Both the position numbers and the translations under genes were made by a program. Of a stretch of DNA of 64,000 bases, positions 28,679 through 39,506 are shown piece by piece. Every line of letters begins with the position of its first letter. The stretch's first letter is position 1. The notes below the pieces were generated by a model. That model saw nothing but the letters and a program-made list of their open reading frames with translations. It ran no database searches and was not told the origin of the DNA. This stretch comes from Sarea resinae. Lineage: Eukaryota. Location of the stretch: the NCBI GenBank assembly GCA_026026165.1, contig JAPEUD010000096.1, forward strand, positions 1 through 64,000. The letters are read 5' to 3'.

Positions 28679-28727
<49 letters not shown>
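28679..28727. repeat. Homopolymer C49 (G49 on the CAF16 sense strand)
   Basis: Direct count, 14 bp past the CAF16 stop codon. Confidence 0.85.
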
Positions 28728-28741: not shown

Positions 28742-29652
28742 TTATGTCTTTTTCTCATTGCCATAACCACCCTTCCCCTCCAAACTCTCATAGGCTTTTC
28801 CCTCCCCCTTTCCTCCTCTCCTAGGGCCCCTCTCCTTCAAATCCTCCTTCAGCCACTTCAGTACCACCTCTCCTAGCCGACTATTTCCTGTTGGGCTCTC
28901 ACCATCCTCAATAGCAGCAACCTCCTCTATGGGCCCCCACTGCTTCACCCTTCCAAGGCTCATATGTACGAGATGAGTCGGCCAGCCTGCCAGATTATCC
29001 AGTATATGCGTCGCGTACACAATCGTACATGGCCTCGTCTCGGTCTCGCGCTTCAAGAACCCTAAGAAGTCACTCCGGCTTAAAAGATCTAGATCCACAG
29101 TGATCTCATCTAGCAATAACACGGACCAAGGCCGCAGTAGTCCCATGGCCAGCTGGACTCGGCGTCTCTCGCCATCGCTGACGGTATGCATGCGCCAGCT
29201 GAGATCTATGTCGAGAATCCCCACTAGCTCGTCACGGCGCTCGGTGTAATAGTCACCGCCTACGGAGGCCAGCAGCGTGGGCACGTCGATGTCGGTGCGC
29301 ACGATGGGGTTGAGGACCCATTCGAGACCGAGGTAGGTCACTCCCTCTAGGCCGTCTTTGAAAGGATCGACGCCCGCAATTGAGACTGTGGCGGTAGGGG
29401 CGAGACGTTTGCCAGAGAGGAGTCGGAGGAGGGTGGTTTTGCCCGCTCCATTTGCTGTGAAGGAGTTGAAAAGCGTTAGAGATTCAAGGGCAGATATTGT
29501 GGACTTCAGAACGAAGTCTTACCTCCTATTAGGAGTGTGCGACTGCCTGGCGGGAGATCGAGAAGCACGTCTTTCAATCCGGAGCTTCTGTCCGGAAATA
29601 AGTAGCTAAGTCCGCGGACAGAAATCGATGGCGCGCGCGATTCGGCAGCCAT
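28742..29652 (-). CDS. CAF16: Soluble ABC ATPase, CCR4-NOT-associated factor Caf16-like
   Basis: Two exons (intron about 29455-29522). Walker [10 protein letters not shown], signature [11 protein letters not shown], Walker [13 protein letters not shown]-loop YATHI; no transmembrane domain. Confidence 0.9.
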
Positions 29653-29925
29653 TGTGGATCGAGGAGAGAGGGGATTATTTCGATCTGCCTTTGGATGAAA
29701 GAGAGGAGTTGGGCGCTGCCTGTGGTGAAGGGAGACTGGAGAGTACCAATTGCTGGTGGGCGGACTGCCCCTCCATGAGTGAGGTCTAGAGCACGGGCAT
29801 GTTTGGGTGGTGAGTCATGGACGATGCACAATCCATACCCGATGCATGATCCAATGCATAAGGTAAACTTCGTACTTTGTGCGTTCCTAACCGTGATGAA
29901 GTACGACGTAGTACGGCGATACTTC

Positions 29926-29934
29926 ATTGTCTGC
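29926..29934 (+). repeat. Left 9-bp target-site duplication ATTGTCTGC
   Basis: Identical to 37751-37759 and directly abuts the left TIR. Confidence 0.93.
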
Positions 29935-29955
29935 TTACCTCAGCATGCTCAGACC
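29935..29955 (+). repeat. Left terminal inverted repeat
   Basis: TTACCTCAGCATGCTCAGACC is the reverse complement of 37730-37750 with 1 mismatch. Confidence 0.92.
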
Positions 29956-30021
29956 TCGCTTGGTCACGTGGTCCGCTAAGCACGGACCACTATTGCCTAA
30001 CTAGGCAATTGACTAGCTAGA

Positions 30022-30060
30022 GGTCTAAGGCACTTTTGACTGACTTTGTATAGGCTAAGC
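30022..30060 (+). repeat. Left subterminal inverted repeat (pairs with about 37609-37646)
   Basis: GGTCTAAGGCACTTTTGACTGACTTTGTATAGGCTAAGC versus reverse complement AGTCTGAGGCAGATTTACTAACTTTGTATAGACTGAGC; most mismatches are G/A transitions. Confidence 0.85.
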
Positions 30061-30183
30061 AGGTTATTTATATAGAGGCGATTATTATCAACTTTAAACT
30101 ATAAGATATCTGCAACTATAACGCTGTCTGCAATAAAAAGAGGCTGAAAAGAAAGGTCTAGATCTGCTCTATATTTGATTAGA

Positions 30184-32985
30184 ATGTTAGCATCTGCTCC
30201 TTTTTCTAGAACTAGCAAGAAGCGCTATAGGATAGAGGCTTTATCTGCTATAGATACACTTTAGAGACTACAAACTCTACTATCTGCACTGCAGTTATAG
30301 CCTAATCTTAATTCGCCACTATTACTACTATTATTAATACATCTGCTATCACTGCTTAAGGTGCCTGATTTGCTATTATTGTCTTTAGATTTGCTTTTAA
30401 CACCTAAGTTATCTGATTCGCCTATATATCTACTATTATATTCGCGTTTATCGCCTAAGATATCTGATCTACTACTGTTATCTTCTCCTTCTACTTTATC
30501 TCCTAATACAACTAAGCGTTTAAGCCTAGAGGAAAAGGTCTAAGGCATCCTAAGGTAACTGCAGGAATAGCAGATAACACCTATCTGCTTTATACAACTC
30601 TAGCTAGAGAGCACTGTAGAATGTAATAAGCAGCAGCAGATAAAGAGAAGAGAAGACCTTCTTAACCTTATCCTTAGTTATAAGGGTCTTTATACACTTC
30701 TAATTAGTGCAGACAAAGGCTAAGCTGCAGTTATTAACAGCGCTATTACTCTTGTCTGTAATAAGCTAGACAGGCTGCAGAGCGAATGTCTGTTGTTTAG
30801 GCAATACAATAAGGACCTAGGTTTTAAAGAGCTTAATATCTCTAGCACTGCAGACACTATTAAGCGGATAGCGCCTATGCTTACACGTCTTATCTGTAGT
30901 GTAGCAGAGGCAAAACAGTCTAGCACTGTGTATTAGCAGAGAACTCTAGCAGATAAAGGCTGAATAGTTATAACTATATTAATACTAAGCCTTAGCTGTT
31001 TAAGGACTTCTATAAACTGTTTCGCGCGCCTGTTAGGACTATATTTAAAGGATATAAGGCTAACCTGCTAAGCGTTAAGCGTGCTGCATAGCCTTAGACT
31101 TATAGACAGATATTGCACAATTAATATGCAGAAGCTGCAGATATTAGAGCAGAGCAAGGAACGTGATATTAACGCCTTCTATTTAGCAGACCTAGCTAAC
31201 TAAAACAAGGCAAATATCTCCTCTGCAGTGCAGACATAGGATTTTATAGTGGTCTATAATAACTTTAAGTAGCAACAAAGGGTGCGACACTAGACTATAG
31301 GTAATACCAGAGATTTTTGTTTATATATGACTAGAAAGCTACTATACAAACAATGCTTGCTAAACAGACCACTTACTTAAGACATATACTATCTAGATAT
31401 CTGTATAGAGGTAATAGATCTGCTTAAGGCAGATAGGAATTTCATAGACAAGACATAGACTAAGATATTAACTCACCTTATTGCTAGTTCTATCTGCGCA
31501 GCGTTTCTAGAACAGACAGAGGCTATATTTGCAGCAGATAGTATTTAATTCCTACAGATGCTATGCGTTAATGTTCTTCTGCTCTTACAGACAGAGCATC
31601 TCACACTAGGACTAATTACTAAGAGTAAGGGTTCTATTTTAGGCACATATAATGTGCTTAACAACATATTTGTCTGCTAGCTTAGCTAAGATACAGTCAA
31701 CTTTAAGAAACAGTTAGTCTTAATATTTAGAGATTAGAAAACAGCAAGCCTTATCTGCTCTTGCTAAATTAAGCAGGTAGAGGCAGCAGATACCTACAAT
31801 CGCCTTACCTAGGCATTACTAGTGCCTAGTCTCTTCTACTTGCAGATAAACCTTTTAGCATTAATTGTTAGGTCACATTATAGTAGAGAGAGTAATATCT
31901 AGCAATACTTAACTCTCTATTCGCATATTAACTTCCTTAGCTGTTAGAATATACCTGTAGATAAAGCGCTATTCTACTACTAGCAAGAACTAGTCTAGCA
32001 TAGCTTTTAGGCGCAGATTGTTACTCTATTTATATCGGATTTGCCTGCTAGATTTAAGAACAGGTATAAAGGTTAGATAGCTAAATATATCTGCTAACTA
32101 AGTCCTACAGATTTTCTTTAACAGGTAGAGGATATCTGCTAAAGAGTCTTTTCTACTACTGCCTATTAGGAACTAGCCTAGTACAAAACAAGCAAGGACC
32201 TAGCAGATATAGCTTCTTTAGCGCCTAATCAAAAGCGAAGCTCTTATAAACAGCGTTTGCTGCATGATTTAGAGTATTCTAATTATATCTGCTTCTTACA
32301 CTACGTTAAGACATATATAACGTTAAGGCATGCTATTAAACGCGCAGATATTAAGTTGCTCTACTATGTTATTGCTTGTAGCTGTCTATATTTCAGTAGG
32401 AGTTTATTGCATAACTACTTGCAAGAAATGATTTGTCTTTAGCGGCTAATATCTACTCCTATCTGTGATTGATATCTGTAGTAAGCGATCCTTACAAACA
32501 GTCTTATCAGCAACTATACTAGATTAGACGCCTTCTTTAAGGTTGATTGATTAAACAAACTCCTAAACCTTAAGCTAAAGACTCTTTTACAGACAAAAGG
32601 CAACTTAACATTTGATGTAACAGCGCTGTTTAAATAGTTAGTGTTAATAAGCAGCTATCTTACTCTGCTGCAGGCTTAGTTCGAATTCTCGTTTAGCAAG
32701 CAGATTAACGCATCTTATCTAGATAGGTCTGCTGCAGAAGATATTAAAAGTCTTGCTAATCTAATCGCTTAAGATTTAATTATCTGCTGCTAAGATTGCT
32801 TATCTATGCATGTTACACCTAGTCTACTGCAGTTAGGCGTTAATCAATTAGCGCGCAGAGGATTACCTTTATTTAACAGCAGATATATAGAACTAGGCGA
32901 CTAAGTTGTTAGAGATATTAAGGAGGATATAGTGCAAGCCTTAGTAGGCTTAGACATAAGCATTTACTTGTATATCTGCTATTAA
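30184..32985 (+). pseudogene. RIP-decayed DUF6589/Academ-like transposase (limits approximate)
   Basis: One frame; de-RIPed residues in brackets. VVY[D]NF[E][W]QQRVRH[Q]T at about 31249-31296; F[G]D[Q]KT at 31726-31743; VP[G]LF[H]LQ[M]N at 31822-31851; LRHAIKRADI...NY..E at about 32320-32430; VD[R]LN[E]LLNL at 32542-32571. Confidence 0.75.
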
Positions 32986-33669
32986 TATACAGTTATATTG
33001 ATATCTTGTTAGGCGCAGGATATATAGCGTGTGCAGCTAGGGCACAGCAGATATTCTATAGTGTAATGTTCTAATATTATCACTCTATAATATTATGTTC
33101 GCAGGTAAAAGACTTGATTTAATACTAGAAAACGCGTGACAGCACTAACACGCTAATAAACTAACTACTAAGCTAACTACTAGGCTCTACAGCAGACAAT
33201 AGCTAATATCTTAAGGATGTTTCTAGATACCTGCGCTACTTCTACTCTAAGGTAGGTCACTTCTACACCTAGGTCTACAACCTGCTGTTCTATAGCACCT
33301 TGTCCTAGTGCAGATAGCATGATTAATTCGCTGCTAGTGCAGATATTTGTCAAAGGCGTTATAGTAGGCTGTATAGGTGCTTGCTTAGTGATATCGCTCT
33401 CCTTAACAGGCTTTTAACTGTCCTTCTTACAGCTCTATATACTACATCAGCTTATACCTAATAAGTGCAGATAGATCTGTTATACCTTCTTTTGCAGTAG
33501 ACTATTGTCTTAATTATTATTTGCTTGTTTAGCTAATTAATGTGTCACCTGCTGCAGAGGAGGTTGCTCTTAATATAGGGTTAGTGATGTTTAATATCTG
33601 CACTGCTAATCTGCTTACAGGCTGTGTATTATTGTCTTTGTTATTATTGTCTGTGTCTGCATTATAGCG

Positions 33670-33786
33670 GCACAGTTTGCCTGCTACACAGCACCCTACA
33701 CAGTTGTCCTCTAGCTTTACTATCTGCCTTTTTAGCCTACTCTAATAGATTATACATAGAATGCCCTTATTAACACACCTTTTGCA
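33670..33786 (-). pseudogene. Zn(II)2Cys6 (GAL4-type) cluster remnant inside the transposon; full gene limits unresolved
   Basis: Translates CKRC-VNKGIL-C-x17-CVGC-CVAGKL-C (C-x2-C-x6-C-x17-C-x2-C-x6-C) with one RIP-type stop. Preceded by a plausible short intron at about 33808-33849. Confidence 0.6.
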
Positions 33787-34747
33787 TTTCCTAGTGAGTG
33801 AAACGCCCTAGTACAGATTATTTACAATGAGATTAGTGTGAGTATATACCTTTTAGCAAGTCTCTAAAAGGCTATCCTACACAGCTAGATTAGGGGCTAG
33901 CTAGTCAGGCTGAATTAGACAGCAGATATCCTATGTACTATCCTAAAAAGTAGACTAGCTTAGTAGCAGACTATCTAGAGAGAGTGTCTAAGCTAGTTAA
34001 GCTAGCTAAGCTAGTAGAGAGAGTGTCTAGGGCAATAGAGATAGCGTCTAAGGCAGTAGAGACTGTAGAGACATTAGTGACTGCAGCAAAGATAGTTTAT
34101 CAGACAGCAGAGATAGCAGGCTACGCAGTATAGACAGTACAGTATTACTAGGAGAAGCAGCTATGTTCTTAACGCTTGCTAGATTATCTAAACGCAGGTT
34201 CTTATTGTAGGCAGCTACCTCTTTTGCTGCCTCTATCTCTTAGCGGCTAAAATGCAGCTGTCTTATTAGCTGCAGCTGACTAAGTCATTTATAGGGCAGA
34301 TCAATATACTAGAAGTAATAACAGTAGTCTGCTAACATTTGCTGCTACTCTTACTATCTTATTTGTCTTAACTATCTCTCTGCTGTTATTATATTAGTTG
34401 TTGTCTTAGATAATAACCTTAGGCTATAGCCTATAAGGGTCCTAGTGCTCTAGCCCTCTCCTTAATCACAGCCTTAACGTACTAGTTTAATTCATTATTG
34501 TCTGCTTTACTAGGCAGTATCTTAGTAGCTGTTTAACGCTAATATAATCGCTGCTAATAGGCTGTTAATAAGGGTAGTAATAATGTTAATAATGATAATA
34601 CTAATAATATTAATAATAATAATGCTAATAATGTTGATAAGGATGTTAATAAGGATGTTATAGTTAGGTAGGTTATAAGACAAACAAAGAGGTTAAATGC
34701 AAAGGTGTGCTGCTAACTAATGCAGCTATACAAGCAAATAGCTTTAC

Positions 34748-34849
34748 ATTCACTGTTATTTAGTCTGCCTTTGTTTACCTTCTTTGTTTGCTGTAGATAT
34801 TCACTGCTATTTAGTCTGCCTTTGTTTACTTCCTTTGTTTGCTGCAGAT
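34748..34849. repeat. 51-bp tandem duplication inside the transposon
   Basis: Two units (34748-34798 and 34799-34849) differing only by C/T transitions. Confidence 0.9.
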
Positions 34850-34999
34850 ATTTCTATTTATATTAATAGGAGCTAATAGCTGCTGTCTCTTTAGTGCCTT
34901 ATCTAACGCTAACTTGTTAATAGTCATTGATTTACAGCGATAATTAGTGGCTGTTAGCAGCTAGTTAGACAGTTGATTTAACTCTAGTAGCGTTAGTAA

Positions 35000-37270
35000 C
35001 AAAGGAGAATTAGCTATAATTAGTGCATCCCTATATAAACGCAGAACCTAACTATCTGCGCAGATAAACGCTGCTAATAAGTCTAGATCAGCCTTATTAA
35101 AGTCTCCTCTATCCTATTCTGCATAGCAAAGCAGCGTTTCTACGTTGTAGATACTATGCTTCTAATTGCATATCTGCTAAACAACATTAGATAAAATCAC
35201 ATATCCTAGGACTAGGATCTAAATTATATCGCTGTATTTTGTCTACGCCTAGTCTAATATCTATTGCTTAATCTAGCTGATTAAGTGCTTGTTGTTCTTT
35301 AACTGCAGCATATCACTGCTAAATAGTCTAAAGTCAGGCCTTTTAGACAGCTAAAGTTCTAGATTGCAGTTCGAACAGCAGCGTCTGCTAGGAACAGGCT
35401 CTTTAGTGCTATTATCTGCTAAGTCTTTGTTAAAGGTCTGTAGGAATATCTGCTGCAGGCAAGCCTTTTCCTTGTTTGCAAAGTTATATAGCAGATGTAG
35501 AAGGTCTGCTCTCTGTTTATACACGCTTCTAGGCCTTAAATCTGCAGGACAAGGCCTTAATTCAGCAGGTAGAGCTACACGCGATCCTCCTAGAGTTAAT
35601 TCTTATATAGTCTGTAGTTGACTATCTGCTTTGTCTAGTAGTGCGATTAAGGCAGAGATAGAGACATTACTTATATTGTTAGAATCCTTACTATCTCTGC
35701 AATTGTATTCTTAACTTAGCTGACTTAACTAGGATAAGGAAACAAGCGTCTGCGCTGTAGTAGCCCTAATCTGCTACTAACTGTTAGTCTTGCTAATACC
35801 TCTAAGGTTTGTCTGCACCTTTAGACCCTTACACTAGTCATTAACAAGCAGTATTGCCTTACTCTTCTAACTGCTACTGCGTGCTGCACGACTAAAACGT
35901 TGCTAGACTAGGCTTGCAAGGCGGTTGCAGAACAGACTAAAGTAGATAACACGCTTAATATCTGCAATATCTGCTCCTTATACAACTGTATTAGAGCAGA
36001 ACAATACCTAGATCCTAGACAGTTATTCTGTTTATGCTATATCTGCTCCTTATTGTTTGTTGCAAGCGTAGCATAGTATACTCTAATAGTCTGCATTGCT
36101 AGCTGCGCTAGATATCTACGCTCTTACAACTATCTACGCACCTTGTTATAAGCTTTCTTTAGCAATCGCTTGCTGTTTATAAAGACAACTGTCTTTGTTA
36201 TCTGCTGCAGAGTTAGACAATCATTCTAGTAATACTAACTAGCATATTAACCTAATGCTAAACAGTCTAGACTAAGCGCAGCTGATGCTATAGCGTCTAG
36301 TCTGCTAGTCCTAGACGTTACATCTGCAGCAGACAATAGAGTATCCCTAATACTAGCGCTACAGCCTTTAATAATAAAGTAGAGGCAATTAAACAATCGC
36401 TTATTACCTCTGCGTATATATTCTTAGACGATTACTAGTTCTAGACAATTAATAGAAGTGTAGACAACCTTAACATCTTCTCTAAAGCCTGTAAGTCAGT
36501 GTATATCTACAAACGTATCATTATCTAGCGTTGTAGTGCAGGCGAACTAGGGCTTAGTTCTAAGTAATCTGTGCAGTATACTAAGACTAGTATAAGAACA
36601 GCAGAAGAAGGACTAATTTGACACTAGATACACCTTATCTAAGACTACTAGCGATATCTGCGCCTGCAGTCTAATATCCTTCTATATCTGCTCTAATTTT
36701 AGGCTGACAGCTAGTTCTAGCGATATTAGGATATAGGTATATTTGCTTATACAGACAGCCTTAAGCAGCAGATAGTTGTTATTATCTCTTGTTATATAAA
36801 CAAGCTTTATACTAGTGAGTCCTCTTATCTATATAGTCTGCTCTTTGCTAATCTTATTTAACAGAAGGATAATAAGAACTATAGCCCTACAGACTAGGTA
36901 TAAGAGCGACTGCATTATTATACTCTTTCTAAACAAGGTCTTAGCGATAAGGAATAAGTCTTGCTTAGTATATAGCAACTAGCAGAGTGCTATTAGCTGC
37001 CCTAGCTGTCTGCTATATAGATATATCGCGTAAATAATAGCGTTAATAGCCTCTTATTGTTCCTCCTTATTTGTATTATAGAGCTGTTAAATGTTATCTT
37101 ATAGCTTCTATATTTAACGCTCTTTGTCTGTTAACAGTCTATTATAGGCTATTCTATTGCGCTGTTATTACTCTATCTCTTTATCTACCTTATAGTTATA
37201 TAACTCTCTGCAGGTGTGTTTCTTTAGCAGCATCTAACCTAAGCAATAACAGCAGATATAGTTAATAGCA
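35000..37270 (-). pseudogene. RIP-decayed RecQ-like superfamily 2 helicase (limits approximate)
   Basis: Walker A LIAKT[S]F[G]KS at about 36922-36951; motif Ia IIL[P]LNKI[G][E]EQ; ILIS[P]E; motif II VLD[E]V[H]LVSN[W] at about 36616-36645; motif III [W]FACT[A]TL; motif VI [W]QRF[G]RAAR at about 35880-35906; Zn module CCSNCN[P] at about 35360-35380. Confidence 0.85.
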
Positions 37271-37729
37271 AGGTAGTTATACAGGTGTAGCACAGATAAA
37301 AACAGCCCTTACAAGCGCTTATAATTGACCTAGAGTGTATTAGAAATCATTTACTGCAGGTATATAGCAGATATTGCTGTAGCAGTTATAAATTAGTATA
37401 TCTGCTAGAATTAAAGCTGCTTGCTTCTACTAATATGTTTTTAACTTTAAGGCATAAGATATCCTAAACTAATAATCCTTATAAGATGTAAAACAGACTA
37501 TTACATAGCCTTATATATTCTTTATAGGTGATTAGGTTTTAAAGATGCTTGCAGATATAATTGCAGAGATATACTAAGTTAAATATCTGCAACGCGTTAA
37601 TAACTCGCGCTCAGTCTATACAAAGTTAGTAAATCTGCCTCAGACTATAATCTCGTGGATTTCCCTTTTGGGAATGATTAGTCATTCATCCGAACGGGCC
37701 AGATGTTAATCCGGGTCCACGTGATCTAT

Positions 37730-37750
37730 GGTCTGAGCCTGCTGAGGTAA
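37730..37750 (-). repeat. Right terminal inverted repeat
   Basis: GGTCTGAGCCTGCTGAGGTAA, reverse complement of the left TIR with 1 mismatch. Confidence 0.92.
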
Positions 37751-37759
37751 ATTGTCTGC
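37751..37759 (+). repeat. Right 9-bp target-site duplication ATTGTCTGC
   Basis: Identical to 29926-29934. Confidence 0.93.
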
Positions 37760-37872
37760 GTGCGGGCGATCTCCTCGCGTTCCGCTTCATGTTCCGCACT
37801 CGAGGATGCCGTGACCGTCATCTCCTACTCTCGAGCAGAGAGACTGCGTGAAATCCTGTGAGAGACAAATCC

Positions 37873-39506
37873 ATGTTTCGGCCTTCCCTTCCATCTCTCC
37901 GTCTCAGTCTCAGTCTTCTGCGCCGCCTGACCATGGCGCACCAGCCTCCGCGCGAGCCCCTCATCGCCATTATCGGTGCCACTGGGACCGGCAAATCCGA
38001 GGTAATGCAGACTTCTCTCTTCAGGGCATATCCGAGCAGTGTTGATGGTTGCAGATAGCTTGCAGTTGAGATTGCCCGACGGTTCAATGGCGAGGTCATC
38101 AACGGAGATGCCATGCAGCTGTACCATGGCCTGCCAATCATTACGAATAAGATCCCCGAGGACCAGAGGAAGGGTGTACCCCATCATTTATTGGGGTGTA
38201 TAGATCTGAGTGACGAAACCTGGAGTGTGGGAATCTTCATGAAGAAGGCTTTACAGCTGGTATGCCGATGGACGCCTCTGTTCTTGTTAGCCGTGTAGCT
38301 TGCTAATGCGACGAGCAAGTCCAGATTCAGGAGATCCGGTCTCGAGGACGACTCCCAGTTCTTGTAGGCGGCACGCATTATTATACACAGGCTTTGCTCT
38401 TCAGAGATGCGCTGGCAGATGGTGATGGCGGTTGTGACGGCGACGGCGTGCTTGCCGATAGGAAAGCCCAAGAAACCCCTACAGAACATTGGCCGATCCT
38501 GGAGCGGCCGACGGAAGAAATCCTGGCAGAGCTGAGAAAAGTCGATCCCGTAATGGCCGACCGGTGGCATCCGAACGATAGGAGGAAGATCCAAAGATCT
38601 CTTGGAATATGGCTTCAGACCGGCCGTCCAGCGTCGGAGGTCTACGAGATGCAAAATAAGCGACGGGCTGCCGCGTCTAATTCAGCCACGCCAGCATCAA
38701 CGAAGCTTGAGACAAACAGTATTGAAATTGGAGACATTGACGAATTTTCATTGCCTGCCAATTGCAAGTCACGCATGCGATTTGACACCCTACTCCTCTG
38801 GCCATACGCTCCTTCCGAGATTCTCCGGCCTCGACTAGACGGCCGTATTGGCACAATGCTCAGTCGTGGATTGGTCTCTGAGGTCCAAGATCTCCATCGT
38901 TTCCTCGAATCGGAACAATCTCAAGGCCGTGCGGTCGACGACACCCGTGGCATATGGGTCTCCATCGGCTACAAGGAGTTCGTCCCTTACATATCCGCGC
39001 TCCACTCAGGAATATTGTCATCCGAAGAACTGGAAACTTTAAAGTTACAGGCTATTGAACGTACTCAGGCTGCCACGCGCCAGTACGCCAAGCGCCAGGT
39101 CAGATGGATACGCATCAAGCTCCTTCACGCGCTTGCGGATACAGAGAGCGCAACAAGGCTCTTCCCGCTCGACGGCAGCGATCTAGTTGCGTGGGCTGAC
39201 TCGGTCGAGGCCCGTGCTGCTGATATTACGCAGGCGTTTCTCAACGGGCATGCCTTGCCTGATCCGAAAAGCGTGTGCCAGCTGGCTGGCGAGTTGCTGA
39301 CGCCGAGAAGGAGTTTTGATGTTAGCGGTCGGCGAGATCTGTGGGTCCGCAGGGCGTGCGAGACGTGTGGGATGACGGCTGTCATTGAGGAGGAGTGGGT
39401 TCGACATTTGAACAGCCAACGGCACAGGAAGGCTCTCAAGGGGAAAGCGAAGCGAGAGGAGAGACTAGAAAGAGAGACTCTGTTGAAAGAGGCGTCAGAT
39501 AAATGA
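37873..39506 (+). CDS. MOD5: tRNA dimethylallyl (isopentenyl) transferase
   Basis: Exons 37873-38001, 38059-38259, 38325-39506. IIGATGTGKS, NGDAMQLY, ITNK, VGGTHYY, TRQYAKRQ and a C-terminal CETC...H...H zinc finger. Confidence 0.95.

What the first reader, a model, noticed from the sequence alone, without database searches (positions are those of the whole stretch)
29948..30029. Left end folds into a T-shaped (parvovirus-ITR-like) three-way junction
Seen: CTCAGACCTC-GCT-TGGTCA (29948-29966) pairs with TGACTA-GCTA-GAGGTCTAAG (30010-30029); both stem mismatches are RIP-type. It encloses two perfect 8-bp hairpins, GTGGTCCG/CGGACCAC (29968-29990) and ATTGCCTA/TAGGCAAT (29992-30009), joined by 0-1 nt linkers. 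Inference: such precise branching just inside the TIR suggests a single-stranded or cruciform intermediate, a plausible substrate for the element's own RecQ-like helicase. I know of no description of this for Academ elements.
Basis: partly seen in the sequence, partly recalled or inferred. Interest (0 to 1): 0.8.

Follow-up and report, generated by a model that had tools for sequence, protein, structure and literature searches.

The report
Folding ends of a helicase transposon
Both ends of this dead fungal jumping gene, and of many distant relatives, carry a stretch that folds back on itself and keeps its pairing while its letters change, which suggests the element's own DNA-unwinding enzyme opens the ends during jumping.

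Summary
The fold is real: 29948-30029 folds at -22.8 kcal/mol, z -6.8. It lies in a RIP-damaged 7.8-kb AcademH-type element (29935-37750; DUF6589 transposase, RecQ-like helicase, perfect 9-bp duplication).

The right end folds the same way. So do 21 hand-picked end types from this genome and metagenomes, whose sampled transposases are 26-93% identical. The stem always starts at the second CTCAG (nt 13-14). Beyond the shared motif its letters differ between families yet pair: 88 of 105, against at most 61 in 20,000 swaps and 31 of 105 in chance motif hits.

The T shape is not universal (7 of 21 are single hairpins). The AAV-ITR analogy fails: 0 of 106 members are flipped. There is no strand bias of G-T pairs, and spontaneous cruciform extrusion would cost 58-74 kcal/mol. 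CTAA sits 37-43 nt before the stem's end in 11 of 21.

Best reading: a selected DNA fold-back signal formed when each end is opened, probably by the element's helicase. The helicase link is inferred, not shown. I found no description in print, but could not read the AcademH paper.

The parts
29926..29934 (+). left target-site duplication ATTGTCTGC (9 bp)
   Evidence: 0 mismatches at 9 bp with 37751-37759
29935..37750 (.). AcademH-type DNA transposon, RIP-inactivated, 7816 bp
   Evidence: TIR pair I11; GC drop to about 36-40%; TSD
29935..29955 (+). left terminal inverted repeat, with two direct CTCAG copies; the first 13 nt lie outside the fold
29948..30029 (+). left subterminal fold-back unit (three-way junction in this family)
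29948..29966 (+). 5' arm of the closing stem
29968..29990 (+). hairpin 1 (8 bp); loop 7 nt here, 5 nt in L042, 2 nt in L040
29992..30009 (+). hairpin 2; apart from one RIP change in L041, only the loop base varies among copies
29997..30000 (+). CTAA at the apex of hairpin 2; motif enriched across families
30010..30029 (+). 3' arm of the closing stem, ending in the inverted CTCAG copy (RIP-changed here)
30505..32967 (+). remnant of the DUF6589 (Academ-type) DDE transposase gene, many RIP stops
   Evidence: PF20231 at 31465-32604, E 2e-31; tblastn pieces
33655..33852 (-). remnant of a small Zn2Cys6-like ORF
   Evidence: PF00172 weak hit (E 2e-4, 21.7 bits, cut-off 21) in copy L039; tblastn to window
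34856..37083 (-). remnant of the RecQ-like SF2 helicase gene, facing the transposase
   Evidence: DEAD, Helicase_C, RecQ_Zn_bind in L039; tblastn to window; translation
37639..37737 (-). right subterminal fold-back unit (closing stem, inner stem, two arms, CTAA in the loop at 37678-37681)
   Evidence: z -5.7; covariation
37730..37750 (-). right terminal inverted repeat
37751..37759 (+). right target-site duplication

Best explanation
Each end of this AcademH-type transposon is a composite signal: 13 terminal nucleotides, then a 49-104-nt fold-back unit whose stem begins at the second CTCAG and is closed by an inverted CTCAG, often with CTAA in its interior. Shown: the fold, its fixed register, its covariation, and its presence at both ends and in non-autonomous copies. 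Inferred: it acts as DNA, forming when about 100 bp at each end are opened during transposition. Each strand then snaps back and rebuilds a duplex CTCAG site beside a short single-stranded terminus. The most likely opener is the element's RecQ-like 3'-to-5' helicase (polarity recalled). It could load on a 3' tail left by a P-element-like staggered cut, and the fold would cap or stop unwinding and present the end to the transposase. Integration itself is ordinary DDE chemistry with a 9-bp stagger.
For: Fold z -6.8 left and -5.7 right. Own-family pairing at stem positions 8-12 is 88 of 105; the maximum over 20,000 family swaps is 61. A no-choice rule finds the same closing site in 21 of 21 types and at least 3 of 5 pairs in 48 of 54 distinct strict starts. 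Chance motif hits in viral contigs pair 31 of 105, and 0 of 21 reach interior z below -2, against 19 of 21 Academ ends. Pairing starts sharply at the CTCAG, with chance levels outside it. Loops shorten while stems stay. Families with unbroken transposase frames have it too, so it is not a RIP artefact. G-T pairs are 16 on each strand, so there is no RNA-type bias. Unaided extrusion costs 58-74 kcal/mol, so an enzyme is plausibly needed, and the element encodes a helicase. The top structural match of a relative's transposase is P element transposase (Z 10.5, rmsd 6.5, 283 aligned), which leaves 17-nt 3' single-stranded tails (PMC7776569, passages).
Against: No experiment or read shows the fold in cells. 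No helicase-free Academ elements were available, so the fold was never tested against presence of the helicase. The P element match ties within 1 Z with retroviral integrase cores, and Foldseek found nothing at E <= 0.001. The apex shape varies (1, 2 or 3 hairpins), and CTAA is paired in some families and looped in others, so CTAA may be read in duplex DNA. One end type (L161, L166) lacks a closing arm. The end types are related to each other and were picked by hand. A host RecQ homologue serves in P element repair, so the helicase may act on repair and not on the fold.
Confidence: 0.5

Rival explanations
1. The ends are duplex protein-binding arrays (CTCAG copies, CTAA, CGG pairs for the Zn2Cys6-like protein). 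The self-complementarity is a neutral by-product of polymerase template switching between the inverted CTCAG sites.
For: Template switching homogenises inverted-repeat arms in yeast (PMC8604942, abstract). CTAA keeps a linear distance of 37-43 nt to the closing base in 11 of 21 types. Hairpin 1 is often a CCG/CGG pair in the clade that carries the Zn-cluster ORF.
Against: Pairing does not spread outwards, although the bases there vary freely. There is no spacer inversion in 106 members. Bulges and mismatches persist across copies. The distance between the inverted sites ranges from 49 to 104 nt. The compact clade has stems without the ATATCCGC motif.
Confidence: 0.17
2. The fold is selected, but forms as a cruciform extruded from the duplex by transposase binding or local supercoiling, with no role for the helicase.
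For: Both strands fold about equally well. Short-looped inner hairpins could nucleate extrusion (inference). New copies land inside other copies' ends, at or beside the stem base: 7 events among 102 flanks.
Against: The cost of 58-74 kcal/mol, before any junction penalty, exceeds the supercoil relief computed at sigma -0.06 in a 5-kb domain (50-58 kcal/mol).
Confidence: 0.15
3. The fold works in RNA, for example in the leaders of the two inward-facing genes or as a small RNA that guides or regulates the enzymes.
For: Both genes point inward from the ends, so the strand read from each terminus is the sense strand. CTAA is strand-specific: 15 of 21 types, against 6 of 21 for TTAG.
Against: G-T pairs are 16 on the top strand and 16 on the bottom. 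As RNA the top strand is the more stable in only 8 of 21 types. The register is tied to the DNA terminus, and non-autonomous copies keep the fold.
Confidence: 0.12
4. The element replicates like a parvovirus: the T-shaped ends prime rolling-hairpin copying of a single-stranded genome.
For: T or Y shape in 12 of 21 end types and an element-encoded helicase.
Against: 0 of 106 members are flipped. The fold excludes the 13 terminal bases. The transposase has an RNase H/DDE fold. Perfect 9-bp duplications flank 13 of 13 tested copies in this genome. Seven of 21 types are simple hairpins.
Confidence: 0.04

Closest known systems
AcademH lineage of the Academ superfamily (Kojima 2020, Mob DNA 11:15; not held; known here through citing passages)
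   Same: Encodes a helicase and makes 9- or 10-bp duplications (PMC10045372, passage); found in Ascomycota among other fungi (PMC10799480, passage). This element has a RecQ-like helicase, a DUF6589 transposase and 9-bp duplications.
   Different: The citing passages I read mention no subterminal fold-back unit, no CTAA motif and no Zn2Cys6-like accessory ORF. Whether the original paper or Repbase entries note them I could not check.
Drosophila P element
   Same: Top VIA-align row for the model of relative P0001 (Z 10.5). Composite ends with internal binding sites, and long single-stranded 3' tails after cutting (PMC7776569, passages).
   Different: 8-bp duplications and a GTP cofactor. The passages read describe no element-encoded helicase, and the word hairpin does not occur in that review.
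AAV/parvovirus inverted terminal repeats (recalled)
   Same: T-shaped three-way fold near a terminus, and a helicase encoded by the element.
   Different: There the fold is the terminus itself, flips between two orientations and is cut by an HUH Rep. Here it is subterminal, never flipped, variable in shape and paired with a DDE enzyme.
IS200/IS605 insertion sequences (recalled)
   Same: Subterminal hairpins at both ends that are read in single-stranded DNA.
   Different: HUH transposase, no target duplication and no TIRs there; DDE fold, TIRs and 9-bp duplications here.
KolobokH and KolobokP (PMC9587614, passages)
   Same: KolobokH is a fungal DDE element with a RecQ helicase. KolobokP ends are themselves units bounded by inverted repeats.
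   Different: Another superfamily with TTAA targets. KolobokP ends are long direct repeats, and the word hairpin does not occur in that paper.

Membership tests
AcademH | Academ-type DDE transposase | tested here: met
   PF20231/DUF6589 in the window copy. RNase H/DDE fold by VIA-align of relative P0001. Conserved YDNF, GDQKT and E motifs. Equating DUF6589 with the Academ transposase is recalled, not taken from a call.
AcademH | Element-encoded superfamily II, RecQ-like helicase | tested here: met
   Helicase_C above cut-off; DEAD and RecQ_Zn_bind just below cut-off on fragments; GKS and DEVH motifs in one frame.
AcademH | 9- or 10-bp target-site duplication | tested here: met
   Perfect 9 bp in 13 of 13 tested copies of this genome; definition from PMC10045372.
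AcademH | Terminal inverted repeats | tested here: met
   21-nt arms, 95% complementary.
AcademH | Placement with Repbase AcademH transposases in a tree | not testable with these tools
   No Repbase sequences are held; the tree holds only unnamed relatives.
AAV/parvovirus-type ITR | Flip/flop inversion of the hairpin interior among copies | tested here: not met
   0 of 106 members closer to the flipped interior.
AAV/parvovirus-type ITR | Conserved T shape forming the very terminus | tested here: not met
   The fold starts at nt 13-14; single hairpin in 7 of 21 types.
AAV/parvovirus-type ITR | HUH Rep endonuclease | tested here: inconclusive
   No HUH hit among the ten L039 frames scanned, and the transposase matches DDE folds; short or broken frames were not all scanned.
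IS200/IS605-type single-strand transposition | Insertion without target duplication | tested here: not met
   9-bp duplications.
IS200/IS605-type single-strand transposition | Subterminal hairpins at both ends | tested here: met
   That they are read as single-stranded DNA was not testable.
Known structured RNA (Rfam) | Match to a curated family at either end | tested here: not met
   One sub-threshold hit in mid-element (E 0.14), none at the ends.

The most novel reading that the evidence does not exclude
Helicase-bearing Academ elements use a transposition route not yet described in eukaryotes. A DDE enzyme cuts, the element's own RecQ-like helicase peels open each end, and the strands refold into structure-defined ends that the transposase recognises. 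That would join IS200/IS605-like reading of folded single strands to DDE chemistry with target duplication, and give the AcademH helicase its job.
Probability: 0.3. Interest if true: 0.85.

Novelty: new variant of a known kind. Interest (0 to 1): 0.62.

Why it matters
AcademH elements carry a RecQ-like helicase, and none of the passages I could read assigns it a tested role. A covarying fold at a fixed register in both ends gives that helicase a concrete candidate substrate. It turns an open question into a simple experiment: break the stem, repair it with compensatory changes, and pair this with a helicase-dead mutant. If true, a TIR/DDE element would define its ends partly by DNA shape, which textbook cut-and-paste models do not include. 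The end architecture is also a practical marker for finding these elements and their gene-less copies in fungal genomes.

Tried and rejected
AAV-like flip/flop: 0 of 106 members.

RNA-type strand bias: none. Rfam: no match at the ends.

A fixed one-turn difference between the two ends: the distance from terminus to closing base differs by +17, +16, +14, +16, -12, -19, -3, -1, +4 and -1 nt in ten elements, so there is no rule by this measure.

Excision footprints and abutted end-to-end junctions in this genome: 0 matches to three exact patterns. Contigs of run X1 laid on the element showed no end-to-end joint; one joint 30032/37444 has only 20 nt on a side and is read as repeat mis-joining. Contigs drop rare forms, so neither result is evidence of absence. 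No RNA holder was listed.

Relatives in viral and prokaryote collections: none. The 29 viral pattern hits encode no relative and served as a control.

Low RIP in the first 100 nt (5-7% against 17-29% further in) could be an edge effect and is not used as evidence.

Covariation in the left-end alignment A4 is weak: 3 pairs, which trace to RIP double hits in L041. In A5, 7 pairs change on both sides (0 of 500 shuffles), but at least two involve L041 RIP changes.

The sigma-70 scan is irrelevant for a fungus and found nothing.

Not-in-print searches: searches returned no paper whose listing describes folded Academ ends. sought the template-switch rival and the P element mechanism.

Full report
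Observation. The stretch 29948-30029 is as described. As single-stranded DNA it folds into a closing stem with two hairpins at -22.8 kcal/mol, z -6.80, 0 of 200 shuffles as stable. Holding the 7-nt arms fixed and shuffling only the interior gives z -6.0, and no 82-nt tile of 1559 laid across the window reaches that energy. The second hairpin has a 2-nt loop on paper and folds as 7 bp with a 4-nt loop.

The element. The fold lies 13 nt inside the left end of a 7816-bp AT-rich element, 29935-37750, with 21-nt inverted repeats and a perfect 9-bp duplication. The genome holds 14 DUF6589 matches and 16 left-end matches, in three subfamilies whose transposases are 57-68% identical. All 13 copies I tested with both ends in view have perfect 9-bp duplications. 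The least-mutated copy, L039, shows a DUF6589 gene on one strand and, facing it, a helicase with DEAD, Helicase_C and RecQ_Zn_bind hits; two of these three are just under the cut-off on fragments. It also has a small Zn2Cys6-like frame. A model of the relative P0001 (pLDDT 80.3) matches DDE folds. P element transposase is first (Z 10.5, rmsd 6.5, 283 aligned) but within 1 Z of integrase cores, with Hermes, RAG1 and Transib further down. Foldseek gave only weak Hermes and Transib rows. Helicase plus 9-bp duplication fits AcademH as summarised in PMC10045372 (passage). The defining paper is not held.

Both ends fold. The right end, read inward, has the same closing stem base and a branched interior (z -5.7). 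Across three subfamilies and a gene-less copy, 7 of 26 pairs change on both sides and 0 of 500 shuffles match that. At least two of those pairs reflect RIP double hits in L041, but the changes in subfamily C are not RIP-type. The left-end alignment is too conserved to be informative. One apparent compensatory change there depends on where a gap is placed.

Relatives. A scan of metagenome contigs with a 32-protein alignment found 261 relatives and kept the best 80 loci. A terminal-motif search in these 80 and in 19 loci of this genome gave 121 hits in 32 clusters. I kept 21 clusters as end types, by hand and after seeing the folds. The 11 dropped were: seven hits inside element bodies or flanks (one of them, L161-194, does fold), two hits just outside a true end, one deletion variant that still folds at z -11.4, and one end with no closing arm (L161, L166). 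In all 21 the stem starts at the second CTCAG and spans 49-104 nt. Beyond the shared motif, each 5' arm pairs with its own 3' arm at 88 of 105 positions; 20,000 swaps between types reached at most 61. A rule with no choice of closing site gave the same sites. Applied to all 54 distinct strict starts, it found at least 3 of 5 pairs in 48; three of the six misses have RIP changes in the closing motif. As a control, 21 distinct chance matches to the same fixed motifs in viral contigs pair at 31 of 105 positions, and none folds below interior z -2, against 19 of 21 Academ ends. The 17 sampled transposases are 26-93% identical and fall in two clades; seven have stop-free matched frames, so RIP did not create the pattern. 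The types are not independent (three right ends from this genome are homologous), and many loci come from a few samples.

What is and is not conserved. The T shape is not the constant: the top strand gives one hairpin in 7 types, two in 12 and three in 2. The constants are the register and the stem. Pairing is 21 of 21 at the first stem base, stays far above the cross-family level to position 14, and is at chance just outside the stem. CTAA occurs in 15 of 21 interiors against 5.1 expected and in 4 of 21 equal-length inner controls. In 11 of 21 it starts 37-43 nt before the closing base, while rotations of the interior never exceed 8. It is looped in this genome's families but paired in some others.

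How it may work. No member of 106 has a flipped interior, which rules against AAV-type rolling-hairpin replication and weakens template switching, a process that also inverts spacers (PMC8604942, abstract). G-T pairs are equal on both strands and neither strand folds better, which points to DNA over RNA. Extruding the unit from duplex DNA costs 58-74 kcal/mol before any junction penalty, more than a 5-kb domain at sigma -0.06 would repay. So the fold probably forms only when the end is actively opened. The element encodes a helicase of the kind that loads on 3' tails (recalled). P elements leave 17-nt 3' tails by cutting the other strand inside the repeat (PMC7776569, passages). A similar cut near nt 13 would explain why the stem starts there. 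This chain from cut to helicase to fold is inference; I put it at 0.5. I put the weaker claim, that the fold is selected and functional in some form, at about 0.8. Footprint and junction searches found nothing.

Comparison and novelty. The element is an AcademH-type member by every feature I could test. The fold works like the subterminal hairpins of IS200/IS605 (recalled), but the element fails that family's test. It resembles AAV ends in shape only. Seven searches listed no paper on folded Academ ends. For five papers I read passages only (PMC10799480, PMC10045372, PMC12210899, PMC9587614, PMC7776569) and for one the abstract and outline (PMC8604942). The AcademH paper and its supplements, unseen, may bear on novelty. 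An earlier unchecked note of this scan reported hairpin ends in a gene-less Academ copy (e1-7825700); it agrees but is not independent support. Another proposed ends differing by one helical turn (e1-7787493); by my measure ten elements show no such rule, though its measure may differ.

Verdict. A real, covarying structural feature at both ends of a known kind of transposon, apparently undescribed, with a testable but unproven link to the element's helicase. New variant of a known kind; interest 0.62.

Noticed in passing
window 30106-37590; L039, L028, L114, L097, L088: The 8-mer ATATCCGC (RIP form ATATCTGC) studs the whole element: 26 copies in the window copy, 8-41 in 16 elements, and 0-2 in 10 compact elements. 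A Zn2Cys6-like frame was found in 11 of the 16 motif-rich elements and in none of the 10 others. It may be a binding site for the element's own protein.
   Followed up: partly
L124, L138, L140, L143, L146, L148, L165: Copies inserted inside another copy's end: 9 of 102 distinct flanks, 7 events, on or beside the CTCAG copies at the stem base. L124 and L140 show the 9-bp duplication on both sides, each with one mismatch. Six of the seven share one sample prefix.
   Followed up: partly
L165:8774-8858: An 85-bp outer end with an internal deletion still folds (z -11.4) and shares the 9-bp duplication with the far end, which suggests that terminus plus fold is a sufficient end.
   Followed up: partly
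L040:538-1502 (G000:C88): 965-bp gene-less copy with a perfect 9-bp duplication; both folds are kept with shortened loops.
   Followed up: yes
L043:501-660 (G000:C137): Relic in which a right end is fused, inside the fold, to part of a left end; it has no closing arm.
   Followed up: no
L166:7841 and L161:972: An end-like motif with no closing arm, 1.4 kb upstream of a normal end; the one clear exception.
   Followed up: partly
first 100 nt of both ends, copies in this genome: RIP changes are 5-7% in the first 100 nt and 17-29% further in; the step lies near the end of the fold. It could be an edge effect or protection.
   Followed up: partly
L105, L106, L108, L111, L120, L134, L148: Some families have 3 instead of 4 nt between the two terminal CTCAG copies; their duplication length could not be read.
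   Followed up: no
G000:C118:39692-59533 (L037, L081) and G000:C11 (L038): One copy spans about 20 kb between its ends, and a copy on another contig has the same left flank.
   Followed up: no
window 28742-29940 and 37800-39506: The element sits between divergent host genes, an ABC-type ATPase frame on the minus strand and an IPP transferase on the plus strand.
   Followed up: no
window 28679-28727: A long run of C next to the end of the ABC-type frame; possibly an assembly artefact.
   Followed up: no
window 34748-34849: A 51-bp tandem duplication inside the element, 92% identical.
   Followed up: no
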